From contig JAUCBJ010008463.1 in NCBI GenBank assembly GCA_032718475.1, forward strand, positions 5,522 through 69,521: a DNA stretch of 64,000 nt. The letters are read 5' to 3'. Of this stretch, positions 33,340 to 53,061 are shown one piece after another; within the stretch, counting starts at the first letter, position 1, and each line of letters opens with the position of its first letter. The DNA comes from Nemertoderma westbladi (Eukaryota > Animalia > Xenacoelomorpha). The translations under genes and the position numbers were made by a program. Under the pieces are notes generated by a model. That model made no database searches. It saw only the letters and a program-made list of their open reading frames with translations, and was not told the origin of the DNA.

Positions 33340-34713
33340 TATGTCCTGTGAGCGGATTCAATTCCGCCTCACCGGACCCCCATAAAGTGGGGGGGAGCAG
33401 GACAGAGGGTGTGAAGTAGGTTACTAGCCAATGGGGGGAAGGCATCGGCTGAGTAGGATAATGCGGCCAACCGTGCAGTATAATATTACCGGTAACTGTG
33501 TTACTTGCTCAGTTTACTCAGTCAGTTCAGTTAGGGTGGAACGGTGACTTCTATCACCGTCCGCTACCGCCACTATATGTAATACCTATTTACCGGTACA
33601 TCTTTGCTGACTTTAACCCTGGTTAATTGTGCTTATATCATATTACCATATACCTTCATATCAATCAAGAACTTTGGAACCCTTAAAGAACCTTTTCACA
33701 CACACGGCGGGGACGCGTAGATAGGAAAACCCACACGGATAAATCGGGGTCCACGGATCCCATCACAGTGATAGAACTCCGAAACCCAAGCTGTGACTGC
33801 CAGCCACCAAGTGATAAAGTAAAGGCGATGAGTCGAGAAGAAAAGACGACACCGCCGCGGACCCCGGACGGCGATCTAACGATCCGCGAGGCCATGGCGA
33901 GACGGTATCGACCCACGACGCCGGATCCGTCGACGAACGATCCGGCAATCCAAATGGAGGGGGGCCGTCTACAACAGCGAGAGGACGAGTCGGGAGGAGA
34001 GAGAGACGAGTCGACACACAGCGGCGGTCGCCGTACCGATGTCGCCGGCCAGCCACAGGCCGAGGGCGATGGACGGCCCACCGGAACGGCAACGGTGGAG
34101 CCGCCGGTACGACGCCGGACCCGGAGGGAGAGAGGAGATGACGGCGACGAGGACGTCGGGGCCGTCCGGCTCCGACGAGCCTACGCCGCGACCCGGGAAC
34201 AACTGAAAGAAGCTAGAGGAGGGGCCGAGATAGACCAGGTGAAGTTGAAAAGGCGACTAGGTGAGTCGAACAGATACTTTGATTACCTAGTGCATTCTGG
34301 GCAGGGAGAACTAGCCAGGGAGAGAGTGAGAGGGGTTGCCTTTGAACTGTTTGGGCTATGGGAACGTAGGGGTATGGGGCCTGGTGCAGTGTACATACTT
34401 AGTTGATGCCCGGGAAGCAAAATTAGTGGGTTGGAAGAGACCTGAGGAGGGCGAATCCGAGGTTAAACCCGAGGATTCAGTCTCGTCAGTCGGAGGAAGT
34501 TCCGGGAGGCGGGGGAAAGTTAGTAGGACGGAGGGGCGGCGGGAATCCGTCACAACCGATAAGTCTGCTACATCCTCCGCAAAAGAAAGACGGATGCGGA
34601 AGATAAATCTGGCACATAAATTAGGAATGGAAGAATTAGAGTGGATAATGAGGGGAGGGAAGGAGCAAGAGAGTGAACGCAAAGAGCGTGAGGCAAGAGA
34701 ACAGAGCGTGCGG
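33340..34713 (+). mobile_element. 5' fragment of a second (BEL/Pao-like) LTR element: LTR-like region plus frameshifted gag N-terminus
   Basis: ORFs 33828-34406 and about 34390-34713 with PEDSVS..SS and a charged coiled coil typical of BEL gag; truncated at the next LTR. Confidence 0.55.
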
Positions 34714-35899
34714 TGTAAAAGCTTTTGCGTCATTAACCGGTTATTTTCCCTTAAAGTACTCTGTAGTTGGTTTGCCAGGCATAAAAAGGCCGTGTCCTTG
34801 CTGTACTGGTGTTTTAGAGGACATAAAAGTCATTTCTTATGTATTTGTACTGTATTTGTACTTTAGAGGACATAATCCACAATCTCGTGACGCGATAAGC
34901 TAGATACTCTTGAAAACAGTGTCGCTACCATGACGATGGCTAACAGCTGATATTGCCACGTCGACGTTTCTTTGTTTCTTTGTTCTCTCGTTGTTCGGTT
35001 GACCAATCAGAGCGTTTGTTGTCTCTGTGTTGGAGGTGTATACAGAGGCTCAGTAGTTCAGTGTTATGTTTTTGCCCAGAGCCTAAGAACCGGCTTTTGG
35101 CACCTCCGTGTTTTCAGTTTTTAGTCTTACACTAGTAGGCTTAATTATAAGGACATATATCCGTTATCTAAACTAAACATAACATAACATACCATACCTA
35201 ATCAAACAACCTGTGCATACTTTTATATTATTATACTGCTATTTACTGTCAGTTCTTCATAATATGGTTGATGAATTATTATATTTGGAATAACGATAAA
35301 TAACCCCGAAAACCCAATATACTTGATATACCGAAGGTAAGAGAGAAAGGTTACATATAACGATTGTGACTTATGTTAAAGTGGTTTGAAGTGAATCTAA
35401 TGTTATTTGATAGACCCTACATGATTCGGTCCGTGTTCCTTTTATATGTGACTAAAATCAGTGAAGATCGGCAGATTAGTGTGCAGTATTGTGCAGCATT
35501 GTGTATGAGTGAGACTGATAACGAAGCATTTCCTAAAGAATGCGCCATATATGTGAATTATAACTAAGCCATATCGTTGTGAGTAGTTTAAGTCATAACT
35601 CTGTTTATATAGATAGAGCGCCACGTCCTAAAGGAACTGTTAATATTCCCCGAAGGTGAATAATATTGTCAGAGATTATATAATACTGTCAGTCGAATAA
35701 TACATTAGGCTTACATAGCAATACGATTAAGCCGTCGAACCCAATCTCCCGGGTATATCCAGCGGGTGAATGATCGCGCACCGATTGGTTTCGACTAGTG
35801 TAGTGAATCAAATACTTGTCAGAGGCTAAAAGTGATTTATTATCTAGAAGACATCCTAATTTGGCGGGTTAAACTGCCAAAGGTCTGAAAGCGCGAACA
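34714..35899 (+). repeat. 5' LTR of BEL/Pao element
   Basis: About 99% identical by eye to 49346-50526 (about 10 substitutions, one small indel). Confidence 0.93.
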
Positions 35900-38112
35900 A
35901 TAACGGATATTGCTTCTGGATTGCGGTGTAAGCAATCAAGTCTAAAGTACCGGTACCGGTTGAACGGTAACCTGTACTGCTGTAGGCCTGTAGGCCCAAC
36001 TGCCCGAACCGGTACTTACGGTACAGGTACATCAGTATTATTCGATTTTGATAATTATATACCGTAGGCCTTAATAATTAATCAGGGACGGCCGCCCTGG
36101 TTTTTTATTGAGATTTTACTTGTTTCTGTCAAGTTTTATTTATTTGTAGGCCAGTATTGAGCAGAAGGCGTGTAAGCCTGCTCAGATTGTACAGATAATT
36201 TGTAGGCTTGACTGTTGGCTAACTGTTGATTAGGTCTGAACGGATTGCAGTGCATGTAGAGTGTATGTCCGATAAAGAACGGTTAGGAAGTAGGGGCAGC
36301 CATAGCTGTAAGGTAAACCCCCATCTAAAGAATAAGTCGTACTACTGGGTTAGAACGCATACTACTTAATCATTTCGGAGTCTGCATGTCCTGTGGTTTA
36401 TTTAGGCTTGATAGTAGTCTGCCATCGTTTGGTCTGTACTTTGTTTGTGTAGTCTGTACAGGTAGCGTATAATTTTATTTAGATAATTTGTAGGCTGGAT
36501 AGTTGTCTGGCTGCTGTTGGGTTTGAGGAAATTTCGGTGTGTGTAGAGCATCTGTCCGATAAAGTGCTAAGTTAGGAAAGTAGGGGCTTCAAGTGCTGTG
36601 AGGTAAACCCCCTGTGAAAGAATAAGTCGTACTACTGGGTTAGAACGCATACTAACTAATCATTTTGGAGTCTGCATATACCGTAGTTTGTTTAGGCTTG
36701 ATAGTAGTCTGTCAGTATTTGGTCTGCATTTTGTTTGAGTAGTTTGTACGCGTAGCGTAATATTTATTATTCAGAGTTTATGCGATTATTCGCAACATTC
36801 ATTCCCCAAGTTTGTTCCTACAGTAATTGTGTTTGTTATACATACCGTTATAGTTAAATTAACCCCGGTACTACATGGGCTGCTTGGCGTAGGTAAAGAC
36901 TGGTGATTTTGTGCACCGGTCACTCCAGCAGATGCCGTGGTTCTTTTAGCTGTTCAAGTATATTTAACTACTGATTATATGTTGTACAAGTACTCGTACC
37001 TAATTTAGGGTTTAGTGTACAGTGCTTTCCGAGAGTAATTAGTATAGGCATTATATTTGTGTTGTAAAGTGGTTGATAGGCACGTTCGATTAGCTCTATT
37101 AACTTCTAGGTAGGAACACTCCGTGATACATAACGTAGAACCTATAGCGATACGGCTATAGGTCGTCAGGCGGTGGTATTTTCCTATCTGGACAACGCAG
37201 TGTATTTACTACTACGTATTATTTTCAAATACCGCAGTACCCTGTCCGTTGTAATAACCAGATTCTAACCCTTTGTTAGGCTGGTTTGTAGACTTCTTGT
37301 AAAATTACCCTGAAAATTCGTATTTTGTGTTTTGTAAATTTTTGTGTTTATTTAGAGATTGTAATCTCACCCGAATTGTACGTAATTTGTAGTATTAAGT
37401 AACTTAGGTAAATTAGCATTATTTGTTTTAGTGTCCTATAAGTAACACTTCACTGAAAGCGCACCGCTTTGTGTAGTGATTACTTCCCAGAAATAATAAC
37501 ATTTATTTCAAACATTGACAAAACCCATTAAAACGGGTATATATATATTATAAATCAAATCTAACGATTTATAAATAGTAGGCCTACCATACAACCATTA
37601 GGTCTCAATATCAGTTGGACTACTGCTCAAATAACGGTAATAAAGTAAGTAAAGTAACCAAGTAACCCTAAAATTCAGAAATTCAATTATTTAAAATAAT
37701 TGATATACCGGTATTTACGATAGGCCTATTATCTTTATTTCTATAAATTTAGGCTGAAATTATACCGGTACTTTATAATTAATTCTAGTCCAGAATTATA
37801 CTTATATATACTACAAACTGTAAGCTGTATACCGGTATTCCCGATAGGCCTATTATATATTTATATATATTTGTGCTAAAATTATACCGGTATTCTGTGA
37901 TAAACCTAGTCTGTAATAATACTTATATAGTTATATATACTATAAGCATACCGGTATTCTAATATATTATATATAGCACGCTGCACTGAGTAGCAGTACC
38001 GGTAATTAATTACTAGGCTAGCAGTTAATACTGAGTTACTAGACTTGCTCAGACTGTAATACAGCAGTAGACATTCAACTGTACACAACTGTACTTCAGT
38101 TCACCTGCCACT

Positions 38113-41007
38113 GTGAGGAAGGTCATCCCTCCTGTAGTAATAACAGAACCTAGGCTGGTCCAACATCGTAGGTCTATCATAGGCACTCGAGCTCAGGTCA
38201 AGCGGGACCAAGAAGCAGCAGAACAGCAACAACCCGCGAGCCAAGAACTTACTTCTCAACGGCCCAACAGCTCCAGTAGTGAGGATACTGTAGAACTGAC
38301 ACCAGAACGCGGAGCAAAGATGATGGATGCGGTTTATTCGGATCCCCTTCTCATCCTTCCTGCAGCCGTACTCACTAGGTTATTGATTGCGGTGGAAGAA
38401 CACCAGATCGATTGGGCGAGAAGTCAGCGATCAACTAGAGATAGTTATGCGGGATACACGAGGGAAGAACTGAAGTCTATTGTCGAGTCGCAATGGAACT
38501 TCCCCGGACCCGGACTCCCGTTTGATTTATCAGAAGCTGCCTGGGAAGACATACATCGGATGGGAGTAGCCAAAGAAACCATAGATCCCGCTGTGTGGAA
38601 GAGGTCCGCAGCCGGATACGCACAGGGATTCTTCAGCTCTATGGAGCGAGTAAAAGGACAACTGTTTCAACAACCACAAGGACCTCAAGAGCAGGGACAA
38701 CTGCTTTATCAAGTTAGAGAAAGAATTCTACGAATCAGGCTAATATTATCGGCCTTTGAGGAGGCTTCTAAACGAAGGCAAGACACGTCGTTGCAAGTTG
38801 CCGTAAAGACTTGGTTTCAAAGGGTGAGTCTCCAGGTTCAAGGAACAGCTCAGTGGAAAGCTCAGCTAGAGGAGCGCTCAACCCATGGAGAATCAACAGA
38901 CGCTACTTTTTCCCAAGTGGAAAGTGAAGCGACGGCAGAGAAACCGCATAAGAGGGATGCCATTGACATCTATCTGTCAGACTATCAACGTTTTTTAGGT
39001 GATGACGAGTTGAGGAGAAGGTTAGAGGGACTTAGCCCTAATAGTGAAGGAACCAAGCTTGTGTTGGATGCCATCGATGTGGAAATGAGGGCTGCAAACC
39101 AGGCTAAATTTGATGAACAACTCCGCATCACCAGAGTCCAAGAAGAACAAGTAAAGAAAAAACGTATAGAAGACAGAAAGGCAGCGGCAGTAGCAGCAGC
39201 AGTGGCAGCTGCAGAAGCAGAAAGAAAAGCGGCAGCGGCAGTGGCAGCGGCAGAGGCAAAAGCGGCAGTAGCAGCAGCAAAGGCAGTGGCCGAAGCGGAA
39301 AGAGAAGCGGCGGAGGCAGTGGCAGAAGCAGAACGGAGAGCGGCTGAAGAAACCACCCAATTAGAATTGGAAAGCATTCAGGAGAATCAAGACTGCATAA
39401 ATAAACAGTTAACAGCTAGTAATATGCAGATGATGAATCGATCTACTCCCAAAAGACAGGGATATACATCATCTGAGGAAGGCGATACCACCGATACTGA
39501 AGGCAAAGGAAATAGATCTCGTCTAAGCAGACGTAAAAGAACATTCCACCGTCAGAAATTGCCTGATTTGCCTCCAGCTGTTAGAAGGCAACTAAATAAC
39601 ACCAACTTAGGTAGTACAGAACCCACAGACCAAATAATTAAAATAGAAAGACTCCCTACTATAGTAGATGAGCCTGAAATAATTAGGCCTGTTCTTGAAA
39701 TCACCCCTTCGGTGATAGACACACCTGTGCTCCCTGAAACTACCTCTAAATTCCCTCTGCATAGCACTAAGCTACCTGTGCCCAGTAGAACTGCCCAGGA
39801 GACAGTTCAGGTCCTGGACCCCGAGCGAAATATACATGATTTGTCGCCCGTTGTCCCTCGTCCGCCCGCTACAACGTTGGCGACTCCCGCTTCGGCGGTC
39901 GAATGGGTGGACGAGAGACGACGGGGGATGGATCTCCTGCTCGGACAGATGCAGGAGACTGTTCAACAATTCAAAGGCACAGTAAGGGAAAGTAGGCTAG
40001 AGTTGCAAGAAGTGCAGCAAAGTATCGCGCTAGAACGCGATAAATTAGTAAATGCACAAAAGGGTATACCACCACCCTCTGTAACAATGTGTCAACCTGT
40101 TAGGTCTGAAGTATCGCATGCGCAAGGTGTGGAGCCTACACGCATCTATACTGCTAGCGAAGTAGAAACTCCTATAGTGAACCCTATTAAGGGTAATTAT
40201 AGACCTGTTGATAATGATATTCCATATAGAACGGATCATAATCCGAGAAATTTATATACCGATAACTCGATATTAAATAACACGATGGCCCAAGAAAGTT
40301 TTACGCGTCAAATGGCTAGAACCGAAGCCCGGCAAGCTGTAAAGGTGGGAGAGATCGTCAAGTTCAATGGAGATGAGATGAAATGGTTACCTTTTAATGA
40401 ATATTACAAAGATAACATACAGAACTCTGTGCTATCTAATGGAGAGAAACTTAGATTCCTCATCGAATGCTTGGAAGGATCTCCCAAGTTAATGGCGTTA
40501 AAATTTATTGGACATCCAGACGGATTAAGACAAGTTTGGGATACACTTAACATCAGGTATGGTAATAGGAATAACATAGCTGGGTATTTGTATGCAAAGT
40601 TGGTAGCGCCCCGAAAGTTTATTAGCAGCGGAATTATAGAGTTTTCCGATGAGATTCAGGAGATCTGCAGACAATTAGATTGGCTAGGTAAGTCTCATGA
40701 GTATCAGAACACTATGGTTATTAGAGCAGTAGCTTCTACTTTACCGAAGGGTGGAGTAGGCACACGCTGGGATAAGAAAGTGTTATATATGATGGAACAA
40801 CAACGAAGAGACCCTACCATGGCTGATCTCATGTCATTCCTAGATGGAGAAGTGAAATTACAGCTCCTGAAACTGTCCAGAGAGAAGACACCGGAAAACA
40901 AGGTAAGTGAAAAACCCGTCGCTAGGAGAAAGGTAACACCAGTGTGTTATACAGATGATGGCGAAAGCCAGACTTCTCAAGGAGAAGATAGTCGGGAAAG
41001 ACACTGA
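38113..41007 (+). CDS. BEL/Pao Gag (first ATG 38320) with Ala/Glu-rich repeat and DUF1759-like domain
   Basis: KFNGDEMKWLPF...EKLRFLIECLEG...RYGN pattern of the BEL gag core. Confidence 0.85.
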   Translation: MRKVIPPVVITEPRLVQHRRSIIGTRAQVKRDQEAAEQQQPASQELTSQRPNSSSSEDTVELTPERGAKMMDAVYSDPLLILPAAVLTRLLIAVEEHQIDWARSQRSTRDSYAGYTREELKSIVESQWNFPGPGLPFDLSEAAWEDIHRMGVAKETIDPAVWKRSAAGYAQGFFSSMERVKGQLFQQPQGPQEQGQLLYQVRERILRIRLILSAFEEASKRRQDTSLQVAVKTWFQRVSLQVQGTAQWKAQLEERSTHGESTDATFSQVESEATAEKPHKRDAIDIYLSDYQRFLGDDELRRRLEGLSPNSEGTKLVLDAIDVEMRAANQAKFDEQLRITRVQEEQVKKKRIEDRKAAAVAAAVAAAEAERKAAAAVAAAEAKAAVAAAKAVAEAEREAAEAVAEAERRAAEETTQLELESIQENQDCINKQLTASNMQMMNRSTPKRQGYTSSEEGDTTDTEGKGNRSRLSRRKRTFHRQKLPDLPPAVRRQLNNTNLGSTEPTDQIIKIERLPTIVDEPEIIRPVLEITPSVIDTPVLPETTSKFPLHSTKLPVPSRTAQETVQVLDPERNIHDLSPVVPRPPATTLATPASAVEWVDERRRGMDLLLGQMQETVQQFKGTVRESRLELQEVQQSIALERDKLVNAQKGIPPPSVTMCQPVRSEVSHAQGVEPTRIYTASEVETPIVNPIKGNYRPVDNDIPYRTDHNPRNLYTDNSILNNTMAQESFTRQMARTEARQAVKVGEIVKFNGDEMKWLPFNEYYKDNIQNSVLSNGEKLRFLIECLEGSPKLMALKFIGHPDGLRQVWDTLNIRYGNRNNIAGYLYAKLVAPRKFISSGIIEFSDEIQEICRQLDWLGKSHEYQNTMVIRAVASTLPKGGVGTRWDKKVLYMMEQQRRDPTMADLMSFLDGEVKLQLLKLSREKTPENKVSEKPVARRKVTPVCYTDDGESQTSQGEDSRERH

Positions 41008-44000
41008 CCGCGCTTATTACGTAAATAAAATGCCTAGAGATCAGGTAAGTAAATTTAAGTCTCGAACAAATGACAGGAGAGAACAGGTAAGAAAAACTCC
41101 TCCTACGTCTCCCAAGAGAATTCAGGTGAGAAAGCCCGAAGAAAAAACAAGTGTACACAATGTCACCCAAAATAAGGTAAGTAACATCAAACCGAAATGT
41201 GCGCTGTGTGACGGGACCCACCGTTTGAATATGTGTGATGAATTTCTAAAGAAATCATTAACTGAGAGACGTGAAGTCATGTGGGACAAGCGGTTATGTT
41301 ATAATTGCCTCAGACAAGGACACCAACGGCGAACCTGTTACTCTGACACAAGATGTGCCAAGTGCGGTGCGAAACATCATATCTTGTTGCACGCTGAATT
41401 CGAGCGAAATAGTCCGAGTCAGGTAAGTGATTCCGAACTACATGTCCAATTCAGTGATGTGAACGACACTGATCAATCTGAGATGGAAGGATTCTATACG
41501 GACGAGTTCTCCGACGAAAACGAATCCTGTTACATGATAAATACCACAGTGTATCGAGCACTCATTTATGAAAAGGATACATCAGACATTGACCTTGCTT
41601 TAAATACTTCTGATCGACAACCATCTTGGAAAGCGCCAACTTCCAATGTAGGGATTAGAGAATTTCCTGTGGTACAGGTAAGGGTTCACGGACCTAAGAG
41701 GAGTTACGTAGTGAACGCCCTCCTTGACTCCGGTAGTACAGGAACATTCATCGACCAAGAGCTAGCCGAAGACATATTTGCTGGACAACCCAAGTTCCGA
41801 ACTACGCTAAACATGTCAGGCATTATGCAAGTTTGGAAATCTACAATAACAGCGGATTATTATGTAGGAGCGTTGTCCACCCCCCAGGACGAACTAGGAG
41901 AACATAGCATAAGGTCAGTGAAAATGGTGGCTATAAAGAACTTCGCTACTACTCAAGCAGACCTTTATAATTGGGACGAGGATGAGAGCATCCAACATCT
42001 TAACATACCTCGATTCCAGACTGATTATCCTGGAGTGCAAATACTCATCGGCCAAAACGCGCATGAGGCGCTGGAGACATTAGAGAAACGGCCTGCTCAA
42101 CCGCAGCCGCTACAGACCTATGCGGTAAGAACTAGAGTAGGTTGGTACTTTACTGGCCCTTCCCGTAGAACACTCAGAGAAAGACTACCGCCAGAGAGCG
42201 TCTGCCAGGTGAGTGAATGGGAAGATGATACTAGTGAGGGAGACGATTTAACTGAGGGAACTCCATACTCCTCAGATAACGACGACATTCACCAGCTTTT
42301 TGATGAGGAGAATACCATCGATCTCCTTAAGGAAAACGAGGCTTGGCAAAACCAAGTGAACTTATGTCAACTTCTTTATCCATCTGAACGAGAAGCTTAT
42401 AACGACGAGTTAAATGACGTCATCGAGCGTTGTAATGCCAAGACTCGAGATGAACATGCCGTACGATTCTTTACGCAAGAGGCGGTAGAGCCCAATTCCT
42501 ACGATAAAGCCTTATCGGTGGAAGAGGAAAGGGCCAAGCAGATCCAAGAGACAACTACACGTTTCCTCAAAGATCAAGGTAGGTATGAAGTCGGTCTACC
42601 TTTCCGCAAGAGAGAACCGAAGTTCATCAATAACAGACCCTTGGCGGAGAAAAGAATCGCGCAACTCCATCGACGCCTTACGGCTAATTCTTCAGCCAAA
42701 GACATGTATCAAACACAGCTGGAGAAATTTATTAGTAAGGGATACGCGGAGAGAGTACCGGAAGAAACACCTGTGACTGAAAGAACGTATTACTTAACTC
42801 ACCATTACGTTCCTAAACCCGGTAAACCACATGAAGTGAGAGTAGTGTTTGATGGCTCCGCTCTTTACATGGGTCAATCCCTTAACTCTGAATTGTTACC
42901 CGGACCCAACTTACTTCAATCTTTGTTGGGAATTCTTTTAAGATTGAGACAATATTCGATTGCTTTCGCCTCCGATATAGAAGGCATGTTCTTACAAGTC
43001 AAGGTGCTAGATAGGGATCGAGATAGTCTACGATTTCTGTGGTGGCCCGAAGGAGACCTCAACCAGAAACCGGTGGAGTACTGGATGACCATCCAGGCCT
43101 TTGGGATAATCTCAAGCCCTTCCAACGCCTGTTCGGTAGTGCGTACCACTGCAGAGGACAACCGAGAGGCATTCTCTAAGGAAGTGATCGACAACATCAA
43201 GAGAGACATATACATGGACGACAATCTGAAGTCCCTCCCATCAGTTGAGGAAGCCATTGAGGTCGCTAAAGGAATGGTAGAGTGCTTAAAAAGAGGTGGG
43301 TTTCGATTAACAAAATTCACCAGCAACTCCCGTGAGTTTCTGGAGTCGATCCCTGCGGAAGATCGAGGGGCGAAAGATCTAGATTTGATCAAAGATGATC
43401 TGCCAGAAACCAAGACACTCGGCTTGAAATGGGACACAGAGCGAGATATCCTGTTTTTCCAACTAAAACAGCGAGATAATCCAGTTCGAACCAAACGGAT
43501 TTGTTTAAGTATACTGAGCACTTATTTCGATCCATTGGGATTTATTAGCCCAGTTATATTGATTGCTCGGAGTTTGGTACAACAAATGTGGCTTGAAAAC
43601 CACTCATGGGATGATCCACTTAAGGGAGAATTATTAAAGAAGTGGATGAAATGGGAAGATTCTCTGCCGGCTATCGAGGATTTTATAATTTCCCGTTCAT
43701 ATTTTGGTCATGTTCTCCCTACGTATTCCTATCAACTCCATGTGTTTGGAGACGCCAGCGATATGGGAATAGGTATAGTAGCCTATCTAAGAGTGGAAAC
43801 TCCGGATGGAATCAAAGTCGCCTTGGTTACTTCTAAGGCATTAATCAACAACAAGTTGAAAGTTCCTCGAGCGGAGTTAAAAGCGGCTCTATACGCTACA
43901 GCCATCGGCCGGAATGTAACAGAACAGATTGACTATCCATTAGAGAAAACTGTCTATTGGACCGACGCTTTACTCGTGTTAGAGTATATAACCAATGAAG

Positions 44001-46096
44001 TCTGTCAGTTCAGCGTCTTCGTTACCAACAGAGTAGCCATCATACTTAGTCGCACGACGATGGACCAATGGAGACATTGCCCCGGAACGATTAATCCAGC
44101 AGACATCGCTTCCCGAGGAGCGACTCCAAAGGAATTGGTAAATACTCCCGAATGGTTAGGTGGACCCGACTTTCTCTACCGAGAAGAAGAAGAATGGCCT
44201 CCCCATCTCACAACAGCAGAGATCAGACAGGCCAAGGGAGCGGAGAAAGTTAAACCCAAAACTCGAGCGAGTAAATCGAAGTTGTTTAAACCTGCGGTTG
44301 ATCTATCTGTATTATTTACTTCCGGAGAGGATGCTTTGGATCAGAAACCCACCGCCACGGATAAAGAAGTCTTGGAAATCCGTGACAAGGATTGGAAATC
44401 TGGAATACCAGATATCTCACAAGGACTCTCACCTCTCTTGCAGAGAGCGATACGTCACTACAGTTCCTGGAATCGGCTCTGTAAAGCTGTCACCTATTTG
44501 AAACGATGTTTTCATCATCGTTACTCAGGAACAAAGACCAATAGTGATGATGCTCCATCAACATCTGCACGAGTCCATGTTGTTAAAGATCTTCCTAAAT
44601 ACAAGATATCCGACAGGTTTCTAAAGGAGAAGATCAGTTACCAGGAGCATGATGAAACCAACAAACAGATGCTGAGACTCCTACAATGCTATGAGGATTC
44701 CGATAAGTATTTCCTGTTGTTAAGAAATCCGCAGATGCGCTTAAGGGATCGCTTCTCTAGTACCATGATAGATGGGTTAATACGTGTTGGAGGCAGGCTT
44801 ACCAACGCCCCATTATCCTTTGACACTAAGTTTCCCATACTCATTAGAAATCTTGACATACAAATCAAGATGATTGTAGATGTTCATAGCAAACTGTACC
44901 ATGCTGGTAGAGAACGAGTTCTGAGCGAAATTCGAACTCGCTACTATTTTTATAAACCCCGTAGGGCTCTGAACCAAGTTCTTAGGAACTGCATACCCTG
45001 TAGGAAAGCATTCAGTAGGCCTTTAACACAGCGAGAGGCAGAATTACCTAGGGAAAGAGTAAGCTTCTATGAACCACCCTTTACTAATACCGGTGTGGAT
45101 TTATTTGGCCCTATTGAAGTATATCGTGCCCGGACTATAGTCAAGAGATGGTGTGTCATCTTCGTTTGTATGACTTGTAGAGCTATCCATCTCGATATGG
45201 TAAACGATCTATCCACCAACAGCTTCGTGTTGAGTTTACGACGACAGATCGCTCGCTTCGGAACCAGTAACACGATGAGATCGGATAAGGGAACGAACTT
45301 CATTGGCGCCAACAACGAAATTCAAGCTTACGTAAAGGACTGGAACAAAAGACAGGTGGACGATCAGCTAAAGATAACAGCGTCTAGCTGGACCTTCAAC
45401 GCCGCCGACGCCCCTTGGTGGGGAGGAAGTTGGGAGAGATTGATTAGGAGCGTGAAGACTGCGTTCCACTTTATTGTGCCTTGTCGCGCTTATCTCACCG
45501 ACGAACTATTGCGGACGTTAATGGAGGAAATCGCCGCCTATCTCAACGAAAGACCGCTTATGCCAGTCTCTTCAAATCCTGATTCCCTGGAAGCGCTAAC
45601 ACCCGCGCACTTTCTACTGAAGAAACCCGTAGCCATGCTCCCACGATCGGAGATCACAGACGGAGACGAGTACTGCCGTCGAACCTGGCAACTTATGCAG
45701 TTGCTATCCCGTCGTTTCGCTGACCATTTCGAGAAACATTACCTGCCCACTCTACAACTTCGAACTAAGTGGTTTGCGCAGCAAGAAAACGTCAGCGCTG
45801 GAGACATGGTGCTTATTGTGGACCCCGATCTCCCACGTAAGCGATGGCAAACAGGTCGTATCATCGAGACTCATATCTCGAGCGATGGTTTGGTGCGATC
45901 AGTAGAACTCGTCGTCATGCGGCGTAATTTTAAGAAACCAGGGATAGTCTTTGAGACTCAACAGCTCAATCGCCCAGTGGGTCGTTTATGTTTACTGGAA
46001 AGAGACAGAGAGCTCTCCGGAAACTATGGAAGACAAGAAACTCTTCCCACGACCACTTCCCTAATCCAACCGACACCTAGGGACTCCCCAACTTAA
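40955..46096 (+). CDS. BEL/Pao Gag-knuckle/Pol polyprotein (three Cys-His boxes, PR, RT, RNase H, IN), 1713 aa
   Basis: CALCDGTH..C, CYNCLRQGH..C, CAKCGAKHH..LH; LLDSGS; YMDD; FGDAS/PRAEL; HHCC and GVDLFGP/SDKGTNF/WERLI. Confidence 0.97.
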   Translation: MMAKARLLKEKIVGKDTDRAYYVNKMPRDQVSKFKSRTNDRREQVRKTPPTSPKRIQVRKPEEKTSVHNVTQNKVSNIKPKCALCDGTHRLNMCDEFLKKSLTERREVMWDKRLCYNCLRQGHQRRTCYSDTRCAKCGAKHHILLHAEFERNSPSQVSDSELHVQFSDVNDTDQSEMEGFYTDEFSDENESCYMINTTVYRALIYEKDTSDIDLALNTSDRQPSWKAPTSNVGIREFPVVQVRVHGPKRSYVVNALLDSGSTGTFIDQELAEDIFAGQPKFRTTLNMSGIMQVWKSTITADYYVGALSTPQDELGEHSIRSVKMVAIKNFATTQADLYNWDEDESIQHLNIPRFQTDYPGVQILIGQNAHEALETLEKRPAQPQPLQTYAVRTRVGWYFTGPSRRTLRERLPPESVCQVSEWEDDTSEGDDLTEGTPYSSDNDDIHQLFDEENTIDLLKENEAWQNQVNLCQLLYPSEREAYNDELNDVIERCNAKTRDEHAVRFFTQEAVEPNSYDKALSVEEERAKQIQETTTRFLKDQGRYEVGLPFRKREPKFINNRPLAEKRIAQLHRRLTANSSAKDMYQTQLEKFISKGYAERVPEETPVTERTYYLTHHYVPKPGKPHEVRVVFDGSALYMGQSLNSELLPGPNLLQSLLGILLRLRQYSIAFASDIEGMFLQVKVLDRDRDSLRFLWWPEGDLNQKPVEYWMTIQAFGIISSPSNACSVVRTTAEDNREAFSKEVIDNIKRDIYMDDNLKSLPSVEEAIEVAKGMVECLKRGGFRLTKFTSNSREFLESIPAEDRGAKDLDLIKDDLPETKTLGLKWDTERDILFFQLKQRDNPVRTKRICLSILSTYFDPLGFISPVILIARSLVQQMWLENHSWDDPLKGELLKKWMKWEDSLPAIEDFIISRSYFGHVLPTYSYQLHVFGDASDMGIGIVAYLRVETPDGIKVALVTSKALINNKLKVPRAELKAALYATAIGRNVTEQIDYPLEKTVYWTDALLVLEYITNEVCQFSVFVTNRVAIILSRTTMDQWRHCPGTINPADIASRGATPKELVNTPEWLGGPDFLYREEEEWPPHLTTAEIRQAKGAEKVKPKTRASKSKLFKPAVDLSVLFTSGEDALDQKPTATDKEVLEIRDKDWKSGIPDISQGLSPLLQRAIRHYSSWNRLCKAVTYLKRCFHHRYSGTKTNSDDAPSTSARVHVVKDLPKYKISDRFLKEKISYQEHDETNKQMLRLLQCYEDSDKYFLLLRNPQMRLRDRFSSTMIDGLIRVGGRLTNAPLSFDTKFPILIRNLDIQIKMIVDVHSKLYHAGRERVLSEIRTRYYFYKPRRALNQVLRNCIPCRKAFSRPLTQREAELPRERVSFYEPPFTNTGVDLFGPIEVYRARTIVKRWCVIFVCMTCRAIHLDMVNDLSTNSFVLSLRRQIARFGTSNTMRSDKGTNFIGANNEIQAYVKDWNKRQVDDQLKITASSWTFNAADAPWWGGSWERLIRSVKTAFHFIVPCRAYLTDELLRTLMEEIAAYLNERPLMPVSSNPDSLEALTPAHFLLKKPVAMLPRSEITDGDEYCRRTWQLMQLLSRRFADHFEKHYLPTLQLRTKWFAQQENVSAGDMVLIVDPDLPRKRWQTGRIIETHISSDGLVRSVELVVMRRNFKKPGIVFETQQLNRPVGRLCLLERDRELSGNYGRQETLPTTTSLIQPTPRDSPT

Positions 46097-47743
46097 TATC
46101 GTTCAGAGTGGGCGTGTGACTCTATTATTTTATATTATTTTATTATTTTTATATTTATGTATGTATTACTACGTAATTTTATTATAATCGTTTTATTTAA
46201 TTTAGTAGAATCTTATTTAGCGATTATTTAGTAGAATAGTGCAATATATTCATGTTTATTGCGTACGTAATTACGTATATATTATATTTAGTGCGACGGC
46301 AAGAAATAATTCTTTTCCTTCTTCCTTACTGTCCGTATTACATTACAAATACGTAACTACAGTAAGATGAAATGTCCGTACTTATTAAAGTACAATAAAG
46401 CCACTACTATATTCAAGCATTATTGGTAGGCAGAGTATTAGGAATGCAAAGTTCAGATCCTCGTGTCTCGGCTAAACCAAGCTCTGGGTAGACCTTGGAA
46501 ACGACTTGCCTCTTCACACTGACATTGCTTCGTGCGATATTGCTCTCATACCGTATATTAAATAATACATATAGTAGCGTGATGTCCCTTTAACAGTAGC
46601 GTATAACGCAAAATAAATCTGTTAAACCCTTTGACCATCTGTAATTCTAGTCGATTAAGATATCGCGGCACCCACCGATATACTTGAAAGACAAATTCTA
46701 GAATCAGTGGTTAACGTCCCCAGACAAGTTCTGGAATAAATCGGTGCCCATCTCAAATATTAATTATTTAATATTTGCAAATCCAATAAATCAAAATCTG
46801 TAAAATTCAGATCCTTCAACAATTCTAGTCAATTAAGATATCGTAGCATTTACCGATATTCTTAAAAGGACAATTTTCATAGAATTAAGGATCTTGTGTC
46901 CCCAGACATGTTCTAGACTCAAAATATGTCCATTTAATTATCAAATAATAAAATTTCAGGGAATAAATTTAAATTCATGCCTTTTAATGAGTTTAATAAA
47001 TTGCCATTTTTACGCAATTTATAACATTCCCAAAATTCCATTAATTAATAGATCAAGGGAGCGGAGATTTGTCTTATTATGAGTATGAGTGTGCGAAAGT
47101 CTCCCAAACATGGTCAATAGCCGATAAAATTCATAAAGTCATGTATCAAACAGGATATTGACTATTAAAGAATTACTATTAAATAACATCCCAGATCTGT
47201 ATGCATGGGAATTACTCTAATTCTACCGCTAGCTTTGCATAATGTCACCATGGCAACAACCACGCTAGAATTAGAATTGAGTTAAAAGAACAATAGAAAG
47301 CTTGTCCCATTGAATAGCATAGGGAATAAATAGCGCACTGCTAGTATCCAAGGATACATAATAATACAGTGACATTCTGGAAGGCATTGACTAACGGACA
47401 AATGGCCCGAATGTGCGTAGTTGTGACCAGTTGTGTGGTATTTGTGAGTTTATAGGTGAATGTTACTGCTAAAGTGTGTTTACAGTAGCTAGTCGCAATC
47501 GTGAAAGTAACCTAACTCTCCAAGGAAAACCTGAAGTACATCTAAGCCTTTGGGACGGACAGTGGAGTGACTTGTGCCGGTTGTCGTTGTCGTTGTGCGG
47601 CTACGTCGTTGGCGAAAGTACAGCGGCGACAACACATCGGCGCTGAGGATCTCGCACTGTCCGGGGGCTGATTGGGGTAGGCAGCGACGCCTGCTCGCCT
47701 AAATATAAACTCATTATAATATGGATAAATTTATATAGCAGAT

Positions 47744-48874
47744 ATGATTGAGTTGATAGAAGATGATCTTGGTATCAGGGAGCGATATACTCTACCTTTA
47801 CAAGCATTTTTTGATAGCTTGATACACGGCGATGCTGGTCCAACTGCTGCGGAGGACGATGATCGTTATATCGAACCGCCAATGTCCCAAGAGCAGCTCA
47901 CGCATGAGTTGGACTATAAGAAATTCACCGCTCGCTATACGCATCGTAATGGTACGTATGTGGACTTCTTAACTACTGGTCATCCTATCGATTTACACGA
48001 TACGGACAATGTCGACACTAAAAGGGAAATGGTACGATTGAAATATCCTACCCAGCGGAGGCGGAACGATAAACCGAGAATGGAACACGAGAATTCTATT
48101 CGAAACAGACTCGAAAGAGAAGACGTTGAGGAGCCGGATAAACGCAGCGACTTCAACGATTATCTGGAATTCCTGATAGAAACATATCTCAATATTGCCA
48201 GTCAACAAAATCTAGAAACTCGATATCCTCAAGGTATACATCATGACCGCATGGTAGAACTCAAACGGCTCTATTCCCCTATGATGTATCTTACCGCCGA
48301 TCGACCGCTACCTGTTGTACCGAATAGCTTCGAACGGATGGAGGAATATTGTAAGCTGGAGAAAGATCACTCGCGTTTCCCCTACAAGACGTACGTTTTT
48401 GGGTATTATTGTGATGAATGCCCAAGACCCAACCAACAAACAAAAAGACATAAACATCCGCGGAGACGTTGCTTTAAACACGGTTTTACTCGCTATACTT
48501 ACGGGAGTTTCGAGCGAAACTTGTTCAATGTATCACCTACGCTCGTTCGACTCAAACGATCCTTAAATAAACCAATGATCAGAGTTTCGGAATACTCGAT
48601 CAGAGCTCCTCATTCCCTAGTGAGGCCTCAGACTCTTGATCCTATTAGTATGACGGATCCTCCCGAGCTGTACTCACTGCTCAAAGATCTAGTGTTACCT
48701 GAACGATTAGTCGGTGGCACCCCAGTTGTGGGTTTCTTAGATATTAGCCCATCCTACCTAGCCGGATTGGGACGCGGACATTTAATATCGCCGTTTAACC
48801 CTTACCATCGTCCCGGCTTGACACGATATAACCTGTCACCAGAGTGGCAGAGAACGTTGTACCAAACCAGTTAA
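47744..48874 (+). CDS. Extra ORF3 of the BEL element, unknown function (376 aa, CxxC...CxxH, no evident TM segment)
   Basis: Long ATG-initiated ORF between integrase and the 3' LTR; degraded continuation to 49267. Confidence 0.75.
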   Translation: MIELIEDDLGIRERYTLPLQAFFDSLIHGDAGPTAAEDDDRYIEPPMSQEQLTHELDYKKFTARYTHRNGTYVDFLTTGHPIDLHDTDNVDTKREMVRLKYPTQRRRNDKPRMEHENSIRNRLEREDVEEPDKRSDFNDYLEFLIETYLNIASQQNLETRYPQGIHHDRMVELKRLYSPMMYLTADRPLPVVPNSFERMEEYCKLEKDHSRFPYKTYVFGYYCDECPRPNQQTKRHKHPRRRCFKHGFTRYTYGSFERNLFNVSPTLVRLKRSLNKPMIRVSEYSIRAPHSLVRPQTLDPISMTDPPELYSLLKDLVLPERLVGGTPVVGFLDISPSYLAGLGRGHLISPFNPYHRPGLTRYNLSPEWQRTLYQTS

Positions 48875-49345
48875 ACGCTATTCTACAAAGATCAGAAAGG
48901 AAACCTACGTTTGTTCAGATAAACGTAAGTTGTAACAGCAAGTCCAAGCGATAAACGAATTGTCTTTATCTCAGTTCGATTGTGAAATCCAGAATCTCTA
49001 AGAAGATATCGCACTTAGACAACCCCATTCTCTGCGAGAGTTTTTGGATGAACGTATCCAGCTACGAGCGGAGGAAAATCAGCTCGAGGAGAAGCATATC
49101 GAAACGGCGGATACCCCGACCATAATCCTACACCTTCTGATGCAATCATATTGCACCCTTCACCCAGGATTTATAGCCCTCCTAGTAAAGTGGCTCCCCC
49201 CAAAGAGAAAAGGACTCTTGCTAGCCTCAAAAAACTGCGTAAACGCCGTCTGCGTAAGAAAGACTAACTGTTTAGAGTATTTTTATATTTTAGAAACTGT
49301 GATTTGTTATATTTTATAGACTTAAATCCCATTTTCTGGGAGCGG

Positions 49346-50526
49346 TGTAAAAGCTTTTGCGTCATTAACCGGTTATTTTCCCTTAAAGTACTCTGTAGTT
49401 GGTTTGCCAGGCATAAAAAGGCCGTGTCCTTGCTGTACTGGTGTTTTAGAGGACATAAAAGTCATTTCTTATGTATTTGTACTGTATTTGTACTTTAGAG
49501 GACATAATCCACAATCTCGTGACGCGATAAGCTAGATACTCTTGAAAACAGTGTCGCTACCATGACGATGGCTAACAGCTGATATTGCCACGTCGACGTT
49601 TCTTTGTTTCTTTGTTCTCTCGTTGTTCGGTTGACCAATCAGAGCGTTTGTTGTCTCTGTGTTGGAGGTGTATACAGAGGCTCAGTAGTTCAGTGTTATG
49701 TTTTTGCCCAGAGCCTAAGAACCGGCTTTTGGCACCTCCGTGTTTTCAGTTTTTAGCCTTACACTAGTAGGCTTAATTATAAGGACATATATCCGTTATC
49801 ATAACATAACATAACTTACCATACCTAATCAAACAACCTGTGCATACTTTTATATTGTTATACTGATATTTACTGTCGGTTCTTCATAATATGGTTGATG
49901 AATTATTATATTTGGAATAACGATAAATAACCCCGAAAACCCAATATTCTTGATATACCGAAGGTAAGAGAGAAAGGTTACATATAACGATTGTGACTTA
50001 TATTAAAGTGGTTTGAAGTGAATCTAATGTTATTTGATAGACCCTACATGATTCGGTCCGTGTTCCTTTTATATGTGACTAAAATCAGTGAAGATCGGCA
50101 GATCAGTGTGCAGTATTGTGCAGCATTGTGTATGAGTGAGACTGATAACGAAGCATTTCCTAAAGAATGCGCCATATATGTGAATTGTAACTAAGCCATA
50201 TCGTTGTGAGTAGTTTAAGTCATAACTCTGTTTATATAGATAGAGCGCCACGTCCTAAAGGAACTGTTAATATTCCCCGAAGGTGAATAATATTGTCAGA
50301 GATTATATAATACTGTCAGTCGAATAATACATTAGGCTTACATAGCAATACGATTAAGCCGTCGAACCCAATCTCCCGGGTATATCCAGCGGGTGAATGA
50401 TCGCGCACCGATTGGTTTCGACTAGTGTAGTGAATCAAATACTTGTCAGAGGCTAAAAGTGATTTATTATCTAGAAGACATCCTAATTTGGCGGGTTAAA
50501 CTGCCAAAGGTCTTAAAGCGCGAACA
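49346..50526 (+). repeat. 3' LTR of BEL/Pao element
   Basis: Direct repeat of 34714-35899; starts TGTAAAAG, ends GCGAACA. Confidence 0.93.
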
Positions 50527-52690
50527 ACCAAATTGTTCTAACTTAAAGACAATCTTTCCGGGAAGTACTGTCTCATTTAAATGTGTGACTAAATTTGTAA
50601 CAATATCTTCCGAAAAATTAATTCCAAAGGAAATAATGTCGTCTCGGTATCTTTTGTATTCTTGTGGACTGTTATTATAGGAAGACACTGCCGTGTCAAT
50701 GAATTTGGCTCCCCATATATCGGTGTAGGTACAAGAATAAGAAGGTCCCATAGCTGAACCCCCAGACTGGGTGAAGTGTTTGCCATTGAAAGCACAATTA
50801 TTGCTTTCAAGGCAAATTTTAAGAGCTTCTAATATGCATTCATTAGGTGGGTCACCTTCTGCAACAATTGTTCTGTATTGTTCCAGAGTTTCCTCAACTG
50901 CCGCTAAACCCATGCAGTTATCAACTGAAGGGAAGAAATTTGATACATCAAGGCACAAAAAGCTAGAGTTTGGCGGAAGGGGAGCTAGACGTTCATTTAT
51001 ATCTCGTATCCAAATCAAAACGTCAAATGTATTTTTTAGAAAAGCATCATGTTTGCTACCAAACTCGTGTAAATAATATTCAACAAACTTGCCCAAACGC
51101 TCAGTAACTGATCCACAGGCGGATTGAATATACCTCAATGGATGATTTTCCTTGTGTGTTTTCACATTTCCAAATACTGTACCTGGTTGTGGGTCCTGGC
51201 CAATGAGCCAATCCTTGCATTCAATGATTGTTTTCAAATTTTTCCATTTTAAAACAAATTGAGTCACTTTAACTAAATAATCTACAGAAGGATCCAAATC
51301 GTGCTGTTTAAAGCAAGATTTATCTTCTAAGTGTCGTTCAACACTACTACAATATGTTGAATTTTTCAGAACAACAAATCGTTGTGAACCTTTATCTTGA
51401 ATCCTAATAACACTTTCGCTCCCTATGGTGCCACATGTTTTCTTTAATTTAGTTAAAGCAATTCTCTCACTTTTACTTAAATTATCTTTTGTTTTAATTC
51501 GTTTAGATACATCAAATAAATCAGTTCTAACCTCATTCAAAAATTGTTCTAGAATCGGATTGTTAGAGTTCAATGAAAAACGAGATTTACCGGGCCACGG
51601 TTTTTTTCGTGGATGAAAATCAGGTGCTGTTTCACTTTCAACGGCCTGATCGTCTTCTCTGTGAACTACTGTAACCCCTAAATTTGTCTTCTTTTCTTGC
51701 ATGTAATTATCAAATTTTATTCTTATAGATGAAGCAAATTTTATAAAGTCTATGTTCGCCTGATACAAATCAGCATGTGGAGGAATTGGGCAAAACGAAG
51801 GTCCTTTCTTGAGCAATAAAATTGCTGGGTCATCGATTTCTATGTCTTCATAGACAACAGGATCAAATACAGTAGGGTCGCATTTGTTCATTGACATTGA
51901 ATCAACTAATCTATTTTCGATTTTTTTGCGTCTGTTTAAGTAATTAAGTCTACGTTGTGCGGATCTCTGAGGTCCAGGTTTATGTCTTTTATGAGACAAC
52001 AAATTATCGTATAAAACATTGCTAGGGCTTGAAGCAGAGCGGGTTTCATTCATTAAATTGTTCCACTTTTTTATCAGACGCTGTCTCACTGTACGAGAAG
52101 TGTTTTTCATGTGATCATAAACGCGGGACAAGATTGAATTCGAATTATCATAGGTGATAGCAGATGATTTAGCTCTCATAAAAAGACTAAGAAAATGTCT
52201 TCGCCTCGTCTCGGCATGAAGAGAAACAACTTCCAAAATATTTAATTCGGCTTTAAAAATATTATTTTTAGCTTTAATGCGAACCTGTTCAAAATGAATA
52301 GAATTACCAGGTAAATTAAGCTTTAAGCAAATCCTCAAACCCTTCGGTATTACGTTGTGCTTCTTGCAATTTTCAAGAAATTATCTTTGAAGTTGACCCA
52401 AAATTAGTTGCGAGCCTAAAGTTATTAATTGTAGGAACAAAATTCTTGGTACAATCGCCATTCATCCACAGTCAAAAATTAATATAAGTTTAAATTAAGT
52501 AAAGAAAGTTAGGGAATATGACTGTAGGGTGTGAGATCAAGTTGTTTTAGTATAATAATATTTTAAGATTTCAAAAAGTGACAACTTATATGATCAATCA
52601 CTAAAAATTTATTTTTTTATTATTATTAGCTTTCGATAGCTCTCTCTATCTTTTTCAAATAAACGATATTCTGGTATTGAAACGATATTC
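50527..52690 (-). mobile_element. Penelope-like element, 3'-truncated at the BEL LTR (RT present, GIY-YIG missing)
   Basis: FLENC..VIPKGL, LLKKGPSF, IQDKGS, KTHKENHPLRYI, LDVSNFFPSV, GSAMGPS, RYRDDI; ORF 50467-52338 runs a few codons into LTR sequence. Confidence 0.9.
52623..52662 (-). ncRNA. Putative minimal type I hammerhead ribozyme (U3-A8 core variant) in the Penelope 5' region
   Basis: Minus strand TTAT-TTGAAAAA-GATAG(agagag)CTATC-GAAA-GC-TA-ATAA: stem II, GAAA, palindromic stem III AGCT, UA site, 4-bp stem I. Confidence 0.55.
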
Positions 52691-53061
52691 ATCTTTATAC
52701 AAAATATAGTCAAAATATAAGTACGTTTTTTGTTAGAGTATTGTAGCGATACTGTATGCGGGACTTAGGAGATATACAGTAGTGGCGTCCCTAGTTGCCT
52801 AGCAACGGACGATGTGGAGTTTTACATACAGACTGTCCATCTATCATCTTTTGGTACCGTACACTGCAGTACCGGCACGCTGTGTGCTATACGGATGACT
52901 GCGGCCCTATCCCGGTATATCTATATCTTTACAGTAGCAATGCATTGCTAACTATTATTATTATTATAATACATAATAACCCGCGCTTCGATTTATTCAT
53001 TGAGAATAACGCCGCTACATTTGGTGACCCGGCACTCGCAAACTTCCGACCTCATCATACC

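What the first reader, a model, noticed from the sequence alone, without database searches (positions are those of the whole stretch)
40901..42214. Eight strong splice-donor motifs, all in codon phase 0, clustered across the BEL gag/pol junction
Seen: AG|GTAAGT at 40901, 41043, 41175, 41421 and AG|GTRAG at 41085, 41124, 41676, 42207; each falls between codons (K/Q|VS or Q|VR). A candidate acceptor TAGCAG (47736-47741) sits just before ORF3, and a phase-0 splice there reads ATA TGA, whose stop overlaps the ORF3 ATG (ATGA). Known: Drosophila copia makes Gag from a spliced RNA, and AUGA overlaps mediate stop-restart translation. Inference: alternative donors remove pol to give a ladder of Gag isoforms with or without zinc knuckles, possibly coupled to ORF3 translation.
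Basis: partly seen in the sequence, partly recalled or inferred. Interest (0 to 1): 0.8.

Follow-up and report, generated by a model that had tools for sequence, protein, structure and literature searches.

The report
Splice-donor ladder inside retrotransposon gag-pol
A jumping gene in an animal genome has eight near-perfect splice-start signals written into its codons between the capsid and reverse-transcriptase regions, far more than chance or 28 distant relatives show, and they likely let the cell splice out the enzyme genes to make extra capsid protein, although that splicing is untested.

Summary
The eight AG|GTRAG motifs are at the stated places and are not chance: 7 in ORF2 against 1.0 expected from synonymous shuffles. 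All five perfect MAG|GTRAGT sites in the window, on either strand, lie here. In 28 control BEL/Pao ORFs the same region holds at most one. The window's copy is frame-broken near 40990; other copies lack the break, so the family is a single gag-pol ORF with all eight donors in phase 0. The phase bias is only modest, because phase 2 is impossible in an ORF and a ninth site (40686) is phase 1. Best reading (about 50%): redundant donors that splice out pol for copia/EVD-type Gag mRNA. Splicing was not tested. A diverged subfamily has lost or weakened some donors. The scan had not noted this cluster before, but it had noted donor minisatellites in this genome and BEL self-priming in others. This element also has a Tf1-like 11-nt self-primer match.

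The parts
34714..35899 (+). 5' LTR (TG...CA, 1,186 nt)
   Evidence: 98.6% identical to the 3' LTR over 1,191 columns; ends read
35157..35167 (+). 11-nt LTR segment perfectly complementary to the primer-binding position; candidate Tf1-like self-primer
   Evidence: Markov null P=0.0008 (0.0015 over 4 offsets)
35334..35342 (+). LTR donor AAG|GTAAGA; candidate donor for a subgenomic ORF3 mRNA (inferred)
   Evidence: 8 of 9 consensus match
35900..35910 (+). Primer-binding position abutting the LTR; no TGG tRNA-type start
38320..41007 (+). ORF1 in this copy: Gag with a long N-terminal extension; DUF1759 at aa 682-809 (about 40363-40746)
40685..40693 (+).
40900..40908 (+). Donor 1 AAG|GTAAGT (after ORF1 aa 861; upstream of the zinc knuckles)
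   Evidence: 9 of 9 match
40980..41000 (+). Frame break between ORF1 and ORF2, private to this copy or assembly
   Evidence: nearly all spanning contig depth in 4 of 4 runs lacks it
40937..46096 (+). ORF2 in this copy (open from 40937, first ATG 40955): three zinc knuckles 41198-41395, protease DSG 41726, RT YMDD 43211, Peptidase_A17/RNase H, integrase, DUF5641
41042..41050 (+). Donor 2 CAG|GTAAGT
   Evidence: 9 of 9
41084..41092 (+). Donor 3 CAG|GTAAGA
   Evidence: +5 differs in about 22% of X1 depth
41123..41131 (+). Donor 4 CAG|GTGAGA
   Evidence: GT lost in about 4-6% of X1/X3 depth and in the X7 contig
41174..41182 (+). Donor 5 AAG|GTAAGT, last before the zinc knuckles
   Evidence: 9 of 9
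41420..41428 (+). Donor 6 CAG|GTAAGT, just after the zinc knuckles
   Evidence: 9 of 9
41675..41683 (+). Donor 7 CAG|GTAAGG, 16 codons before the protease DSG
42206..42214 (+). Donor 8 CAG|GTGAGT, between protease and RT
   Evidence: 9 of 9
46110..46208 (+). T-rich tract (54 T in 96 nt) ending in AG 46204-46205 followed by TAG; candidate acceptor giving an immediate stop in phase 0 (inferred)
   Evidence: ranks 4 (46205) and 3 (46208) of 237
46384..46399 (+). First ATTAAA / AATAAA after the pol stop; candidate poly(A) signals for a short Gag mRNA (inferred)
47736..47747 (+).
   Evidence: ranks 86 and 129 of 237
47744..48874 (+). ORF3, 376 aa, no family or homologue found, no predicted membrane segment
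49346..50526 (+). 3' LTR, preceded by a short purine run (GGGAGCGG)

Best explanation
The eight motifs are consensus 5' splice sites written into the codons of a BEL/Pao gag-pol reading frame, between the capsid domain and reverse transcriptase, and they likely act as redundant U1 donors that splice pol out of part of the RNA to give Gag-only messages, as copia and Arabidopsis EVD do. Shown: the motifs, their enrichment, their positions relative to domains, and a single reading frame in the family. Inferred: a single-ORF element needs some means other than frameshifting to make excess Gag. A phase-0 splice to the T-rich acceptor just after the pol stop (46205) would end Gag at once, with poly(A) signals about 180 nt further on. 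Donors 1-5 would give Gag without the zinc knuckles, donors 6-7 Gag with them, and donor 8 Gag plus protease. Several donors would raise the spliced fraction whether or not every product matters. ORF3 is more simply made from the LTR donor at 35337 than by stop-restart.
For: Enrichment over codon usage: 8 of 8 V-[SR] pairs between the break and the protease end use GTRAG, against 2 of 8 in RT-IN and 2 of 6 in the Gag N-terminus. Position: 9 AGGTRAG in the 1.9 kb from capsid to protease end, 0 in the 2.0-kb Gag N-terminus, 0 in the 3.8-kb RT-IN, and 0-1 in each of five other ORFs of the window. All 5 perfect sites of the window are here, on the sense strand. The family is single-ORF. A top-ranked acceptor with an immediate phase-0 stop follows pol. 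Precedent: PMC5580714 passages (donors centred on the protease, stop created by splicing); spliced GT-AG transcripts of full-length Max-element (10.1101/2023.05.27.542554 passages), a BEL-Pao element (PMC10018349 passages).
Against: Splicing itself was not tested. The cluster is absent from 28 of 28 distant BEL ORFs (3 sites against 6.2 expected, at most 1 each), so it is not a shared BEL strategy in that sample. A diverged subfamily weakens or loses donors 2-4. Conservation in the main family is inconclusive: 1 of 15 donor third positions is listed as variable (motif kept) against 17 of 97 overall, with 7 of X1's 33 variant places not shown. Five of eight donors would remove the zinc knuckles, an odd product for a packaging Gag. 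The acceptor score is crude and not trained on this host, and a T-rich tract is also what an ordinary AT-rich 3' UTR looks like.
Confidence: 0.5

Rival explanations
1. The sites are selected U1 snRNP landing pads that are rarely spliced. They would protect the 14-kb unspliced RNA from premature cleavage and polyadenylation, or make it look like an intron-bearing host message for export or escape from silencing.
For: U1 binding at the EVD donor blocks premature termination (PMC5580714 passages). It explains redundancy and donor turnover between subfamilies, and needs no useful truncated protein. An AATAAA lies at 41024, between donors 1 and 2.
Against: It does not predict the phase bias (P about 0.02, hand calculation). 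It does not explain why the 2-kb Gag N-terminus and the 2.4-kb leader carry almost no strong sites.
Confidence: 0.2
2. The cluster is largely a by-product: one functional donor was copied by short in-frame duplications, as in 'mirage' repeats, and the copies are tolerated because only one is used.
For: In-frame duplication puts every copy in the same phase automatically. R-x-Q-V-[SR]-K recurs at donors 2-4. Flanks are mildly alike: all eight 0.30 against 0.26, P=0.003; upstream flanks of the first five 0.375 against 0.293, P=0.015. Unreviewed scan notes report many donor minisatellites in this genome, with the first donor used. Mirages do not disturb splicing in amphioxus (PMC3087553 passages).
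Against: Tandem Repeats Finder lists no array in 40900-42300. No pair of flanks is more alike than chance maxima (P=0.34). Donors 6-8 are separated by zinc knuckles and protease, which simple tandem copying cannot span. The 9-nt cores are near perfect while the flanks are almost unrelated, which implies the cores were retained. Two of four flank tests were not significant.
Confidence: 0.2
3. One reading: donors splice to TAGCAG before ORF3, Gag ends at ATA TGA, and ribosomes restart at the overlapping ORF3 ATG.
For: The overlap exists, and both AGs give a stop within 1-2 codons in phase 0.
Against: Middling acceptor ranks, 86 and 129 of 237. No TGGGA upstream of any of 8 donors (the TURBS requirement is recalled). 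An LTR donor at 35337 offers an ordinary env-like route to ORF3.
Confidence: 0.06
4. Chance or codon usage.
For: The cluster was picked out after the fact among many possible motifs.
Against: P=0.0002 for the whole ORF2 with no region choice, 1.2e-7 given the protein, and about 5e-10 window-wide. None of 28 control elements has more than one site.
Confidence: 0.02

Closest known systems
Ty1/copia subgenomic Gag splicing (Drosophila copia 2.1-kb RNA; Arabidopsis EVD shGAG). Seen: passages of PMC5580714 and of 10.1101/2023.05.27.542554
   Same: Single gag-pol ORF; U1-consensus donor around the protease; a splice that would create a stop and remove pol.
   Different: Those elements are described with one intron, shown in RNA and conserved across the family. 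Here there are eight phase-0 donors over 1.3 kb in a BEL/Pao element, five upstream of the zinc knuckles, none shown in RNA, and absent from 28 distant relatives.
Drosophila Max-element spliced transcripts (10.1101/2023.05.27.542554 passages; BEL-Pao per PMC10018349 passages)
   Same: A full-length BEL/Pao element gives GT-AG spliced transcripts, so splicing in this superfamily has precedent.
   Different: The passages seen give neither the intron's position nor several donors.
BEL/Pao LTR retrotransposons (Belpaoviridae); PMC3118150 passages
   Same: DUF1759 Gag, three zinc knuckles, PR-RT-RH-IN order, Peptidase_A17 and DUF5641; RT region 39-45% identical to the 120 listed relatives.
   Different: 15.8 kb against the usual 4.2-10 kb; a long Gag N-terminal extension; an orphan ORF3; a self-complementary primer site.
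Amphioxus 'mirage' minisatellites (PMC3087553 passages)
   Same: Multiple copies of a splice-donor motif in a row, tolerated.
   Different: Mirages are recognisable tandem repeats running into introns; these donors are dispersed inside a coding frame with only faint flank similarity.
Tf1/Tj1 self-priming (PMC4600332 passages), for the side observation
   Same: Primer-binding site complementary to a segment of the element's own LTR, with the right geometry for priming.
   Different: Described for Ty3/gypsy-type elements; here in a BEL/Pao element, and the transcription start is unknown.

Membership tests
BEL/Pao LTR retrotransposon | Two LTRs (TG...CA) flanking the coding region | tested here: met
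   98.6% identical, 1,186 nt
BEL/Pao LTR retrotransposon | Gag (DUF1759, three Cys-His knuckles) then PR-RT-RH-IN with Peptidase_A17 and DUF5641 | tested here: met
BEL/Pao LTR retrotransposon | RT closest to BEL/Pao elements | tested here: met
   all 120 listed hits (of 1,107) carry PF05380; 39-45% identity; no tree built
BEL/Pao LTR retrotransposon | Target-site duplication (recalled feature of an intact insertion) | tested here: not met
   the two flanks differ; recombination between copies or an assembly join is likely
Copia/EVD-type Gag splicing | Single gag-pol ORF with no frameshift or stop | tested here: met
   the break is absent from 41296 of 41404 depth (X1), 32928 of 32962 (X3), and all of X4 and X7
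Copia/EVD-type Gag splicing | U1-consensus donor at the Gag/protease boundary | tested here: met
   (donors 6-8 bracket the protease)
Copia/EVD-type Gag splicing | Acceptor that creates a stop soon after the junction | tested here: inconclusive
   candidates only: 46205/46208, 47738/47741, 49293/49319
Copia/EVD-type Gag splicing | Spliced RNA observed | not testable with these tools
   only contigs were available, from runs whose kind is a guess
Copia/EVD-type Gag splicing | Donor conserved across related elements | tested here: inconclusive
   main family 1 of 15 against 17 of 97 third positions; subfamily loses some; absent in 28 distant ORFs
Mirage minisatellite | Head-to-tail tandem copies of an exon-intron boundary | tested here: not met
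   one search lists no array in the region; flank identity only 0.30
Recursive splice sites (AG|GT ratchet points; recalled) | Polypyrimidine tract before the AG | tested here: not met
   the six CAGs rank 72-236 of 237
Termination-reinitiation (TURBS; recalled) | UGGGA motif within about 80 nt upstream of the stop/start | tested here: not met
   0 of 8 donors
Programmed gag/pol frameshift | Frame change fixed across copies | tested here: not met
Tf1-type self-priming | Primer-binding site complementary to an LTR segment | tested here: met
   11 of 11 nt
Tf1-type self-priming | That segment is the 5' end of the RNA and is cleaved to prime | not testable with these tools
   no transcript ends available

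The most novel reading that the evidence does not exclude
A retrotransposon that encodes a graded set of particle proteins (capsid only, capsid plus nucleocapsid, Gag plus protease, full Gag-Pol) purely through eight competing splice donors hidden in its codons, so that host 5' splice-site choice sets particle composition. It would have evolved in a host genome that amplifies splice donors on a large scale, and the same element would prime reverse transcription with its own RNA.
Probability: 0.2. Interest if true: 0.78.

Novelty: new variant of a known kind. Interest (0 to 1): 0.5.

Why it matters
How single-ORF BEL/Pao elements make more Gag than Pol did not turn up in the papers searched. 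This element gives a sharp and cheap test: eight predicted junction starts and a few candidate acceptors. If several donors are used, it extends the copia/EVD strategy to another superfamily and adds a multi-donor form that yields Gag with and without nucleocapsid. If none is used, a strongly retained cluster of unspliced U1 sites in a coding frame still needs explaining. If the cluster is a mirage-like by-product, it shows the host's donor-duplicating process acting inside a transposon.

Tried and rejected
No genome is held for this window, so assembled copies could not be compared. No RNA holder listed; X4 is RNA only by guess and X5 DNA only by guess. In one search (X4, X3, X5, X1; 16 kb) 15 of 116 joints were shown and none starts at a donor. 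In one search (X1, X3, X4, X7; 40870-41200) no joints were listed. These are contigs and say nothing on absence. Rejected: (a) an intron 40903-41044 that joins ORF1 to ORF2, and (b) a programmed frameshift, both because other copies have no frame break; (c) recursive splicing at the CAG|GT sites; (d) a general BEL feature (at most 4 [KQE]V[SR] in the matching region of 110 of 137 proteins, against 7 here). The viral-contig scan found no relative. ORF3: no Pfam hit, 0 hits among 1.84 billion representatives, no usable Atlas hit, AlphaFold mean pLDDT 32, so no fold search was run. Host: KIN17 is 48-62% identical to many animal phyla alike, so the host stays an unplaced animal. Self-priming in control loci: 18 of 77 had a long direct repeat, most truncated at contig ends; one (L073) had a 12-nt self-complement and the rest 9 nt or less, which is uninformative. 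No tRNA genes in the window. The window's own satellites carry no site of 8 of 9 or better.
Full report
What the region is. The finding lies in a BEL/Pao LTR retrotransposon of 15.8 kb. Its LTRs are at 34714-35899 and 49346-50526 and are 98.6% identical. ORF1 (38320-41007) carries DUF1759. ORF2 (open 40937-46096) carries three zinc knuckles, protease, RT, Peptidase_A17, integrase and DUF5641. An orphan ORF3 follows (47744-48874). The RT region is 39-45% identical to the 120 listed of 1,107 hits, all BEL-type. The host is an unplaced animal, and no genome is held. There is no target-site duplication.

The observation. In 5,000 synonymous shuffles of the whole ORF2 the mean AGGTRAG count is 1.01 against 7 observed (P=0.0002). 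For the 5' 1,280 nt, a region chosen after seeing the cluster, it is 0.79 against 7, with 0 of 20,000 shuffles reaching 7. The tripeptides themselves are also in excess, 7 against 0.83. Given the protein, the joint probability of the donor-forming codons is 1.2e-7. Between the break and the protease end 8 of 8 V-[SR] pairs read GTRAG, against 2 of 8 in RT-IN and 2 of 6 in the Gag N-terminus. The rest of the window has 13 AGGTRAG on both strands, giving about 5e-10 for eight in 1.3 kb. All five perfect MAG|GTRAGT sites of the window lie in this stretch. The signal is real.

Corrections. First, in the window donor 1 is in ORF1's frame and the other seven are in ORF2's, with a stop at 41005-41007. 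I considered a 142-nt intron joining the two frames, and a programmed frameshift. Contigs from four runs (three studies; X1 may be the source sample) show the break near 40990 is private to this copy or assembly: it is absent from 41296 of 41404 depth in X1 (17 contigs), 32928 of 32962 in X3 (7), and all of X4 (2) and X7 (1). The family is therefore a single gag-pol ORF with all eight donors in phase 0. Second, there is a ninth AG|GTAAGT at 40686 in phase 1, and weaker sites at 41912 and 42577. Third, phase 2 would be a stop and the null splits 0.289:0.274 between phases 0 and 1, so 8 of 9 in phase 0 has P of about 0.02 (hand calculation). That is suggestive, not striking.

Position. Five donors lie between the capsid domain and the zinc knuckles, two between the knuckles and the protease active site, and one between protease and RT. 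The 2.0-kb Gag N-terminus and the 3.8-kb RT-IN region have no AGGTRAG; five other ORFs in the window have 0-1. A cluster confined to the stretch downstream of an intact capsid is what a Gag-truncating splice predicts.

Is it general? No, in the sample examined. Of 77 metagenome loci, 40 had a stop-free stretch of 1,000 or more codons and 28 were non-redundant and long enough. In the matching region they hold 3 sites against 6.2 expected, at most 1 each. Of 137 proteins, 110 were long enough; the highest [KQE]V[SR] count is 4. These relatives are distant (about 35% identity), so a closer clade could share the cluster.

Is it conserved within the family? Inconclusive. For X1, 26 of 33 variant places are listed (hand tally), 19 of them at third positions. 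No listed change touches donors 1, 2 or 5; the 7 hidden places include at most one G>A and one T>C. One of 15 donor third positions is variable, and it keeps the motif, against 17 of 97 overall. Against conservation: donor 3 differs at +5 in about 22% of X1 depth; donor 4 loses its GT in about 4-6% of X1/X3 depth and in the X7 contig (50 differences over its laid part); and 19 X1 contigs and one X4 contig stop matching just 5' of 41045, so donor 2's exon side differs in that subfamily. Only 40 of 78 variant rows were shown. Donors 6-8 were covered only, where 40 of 2,568 rows were shown and none falls in them.

Acceptors. The pair at 46205/46208, 110 nt after the pol stop and at the end of a tract with 54 T in 96 nt, ranks 4 and 3. 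In phase 0, 46205 is followed at once by TAG and 46208 by a stop after three codons; ATTAAA and AATAAA follow at 46384 and 46394. Sites at 49293 and 49319 also score well and stop quickly. The score is not trained on this host. Stop-restart in animal viruses needs an upstream UGGGA element (recalled); 0 of 8 donors has one within 80 nt. An LTR donor at 35337 gives an ordinary env-like route to ORF3, although the LTR exon holds two ATGs. The six CAG|GT sites are poor acceptors (ranks 72-236), so recursive or in-frame skipping is unlikely.

Mechanism. Most likely (0.5), the donors are redundant U1 sites that splice pol out to give Gag-only mRNA. The motifs, positions and single frame are shown; splicing, the acceptor and the isoforms are inferred. 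The duplication rival was prompted by unreviewed scan notes that this genome is rich in donor minisatellites with the first donor used. It explains the shared phase at no cost and has weak flank support (P=0.003 overall; two of four split tests significant). However, no tandem array is found there and it cannot easily place donors 6-8. Origin by duplication and use in splicing are compatible.

What is known. Copia makes Gag from a spliced 2.1-kb RNA, and full-length Max-element gives GT-AG spliced transcripts (10.1101/2023.05.27.542554, passages; Max is BEL-Pao per PMC10018349, passages). Arabidopsis copia elements have conserved donors around the protease, and splicing creates the Gag stop (PMC5580714, passages). 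PMC3118150 (passages) has no occurrence of 'splic' or 'frameshift'. Mirages: PMC3087553 (passages). Self-priming: PMC4600332 (passages). PMC5443660 (passages) added only the domain order and a mention of Tf1 self-priming. Nine searches (listings only for papers not named above) showed no multi-donor cluster in a BEL/Pao gag-pol. The library lacks most subscription papers, and the Max-element figure is in a closed supplement. The scan's own index had no look-alike.

Side result. The 11 nt directly after the 5' LTR are a perfect complement of LTR 35157-35167 (Markov null P=0.0008-0.0015; 2 of 13,380 internal 11-mers have such a match), the geometry of Tf1-type self-priming. Scan notes on other genomes gave this lead; here the primer segment is contiguous.

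Verdict. A real and lineage-specific cluster of splice-donor consensus sites in a BEL/Pao gag-pol, best read as a multi-donor variant of copia-type Gag splicing, unproven for want of RNA. New variant of a known kind; interest 0.5.

Noticed in passing
window 35900-35910 and 35157-35167 (3' LTR copy 49789-49799): The 11 nt abutting the 5' LTR are a perfect complement of an LTR segment, with the geometry of Tf1-type self-priming; there is no TGG tRNA-type site (P about 0.001). The lead came from scan notes on other BEL elements; here the primer is contiguous, not split by an intron.
   Followed up: partly
window 48925-48992: GTAAGT...CAG, 68 nt, just after ORF3. Run X5 alone lists a joint 48922 to 48993 that ends exactly at this AG, with 8 other letters between. 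It may be a spliced intron of a diverged subfamily or a genomic replacement; the kind of X5 is only a guess, and X1/X3 counts were incomplete.
   Followed up: partly
window 44250-45967: A 1.7-kb internal deletion form is joined in contigs of 4 of 4 runs, so a deleted derivative family likely exists.
   Followed up: no
window 34694-34713 and 50527-50550: No target-site duplication. The left flank is a retroelement-like ORF fragment (33828-34406) and the right flank a truncated RT ORF (50467-52179, minus strand), suggesting recombination between insertions or an assembly join.
   Followed up: partly
window 47744-48874: ORF3 is an orphan with no predicted membrane segment, so it is not obviously env. 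Short open frames follow (48999-49317, 49049-49265), one ending in a basic KKLRKRRLRKK-type stretch.
   Followed up: partly
window 38071-40360: Gag has about 680 aa before DUF1759, with an Ala/Glu-rich repeat (39168-39344). The frame is open about 250 nt upstream of the ATG and contains a CTTCAG acceptor-like site near 38100, so a leader intron from the LTR donor is possible.
   Followed up: no
window 40685-40693 and 42576-42584: Two phase-1 donors that would join in frame to ORF3 if spliced to the CAG at 47739-47741 (arithmetic only).
   Followed up: no
window 20035-21207: Intronless KIN17 gene, 48-62% identical to listed animal KIN17 proteins.
   Followed up: partly
window 52742-57370: A Ty3/gypsy-like element with 278-nt LTRs that are 100% identical and overlapping gag/pol ORFs; a copia-like ORF lies at 61172-63949 (minus). 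Labels are from my reading of the translations.
   Followed up: no
window 615-2817, 7770-11259, 27362-30979: Three minisatellites with 31-, 32- and 34-nt units; none carries a strong donor consensus.
   Followed up: partly
window 36193-36775, 37704-37959, 46643-46917: Degenerate direct repeats in the element's 2.4-kb leader and in the pol-ORF3 spacer.
   Followed up: no
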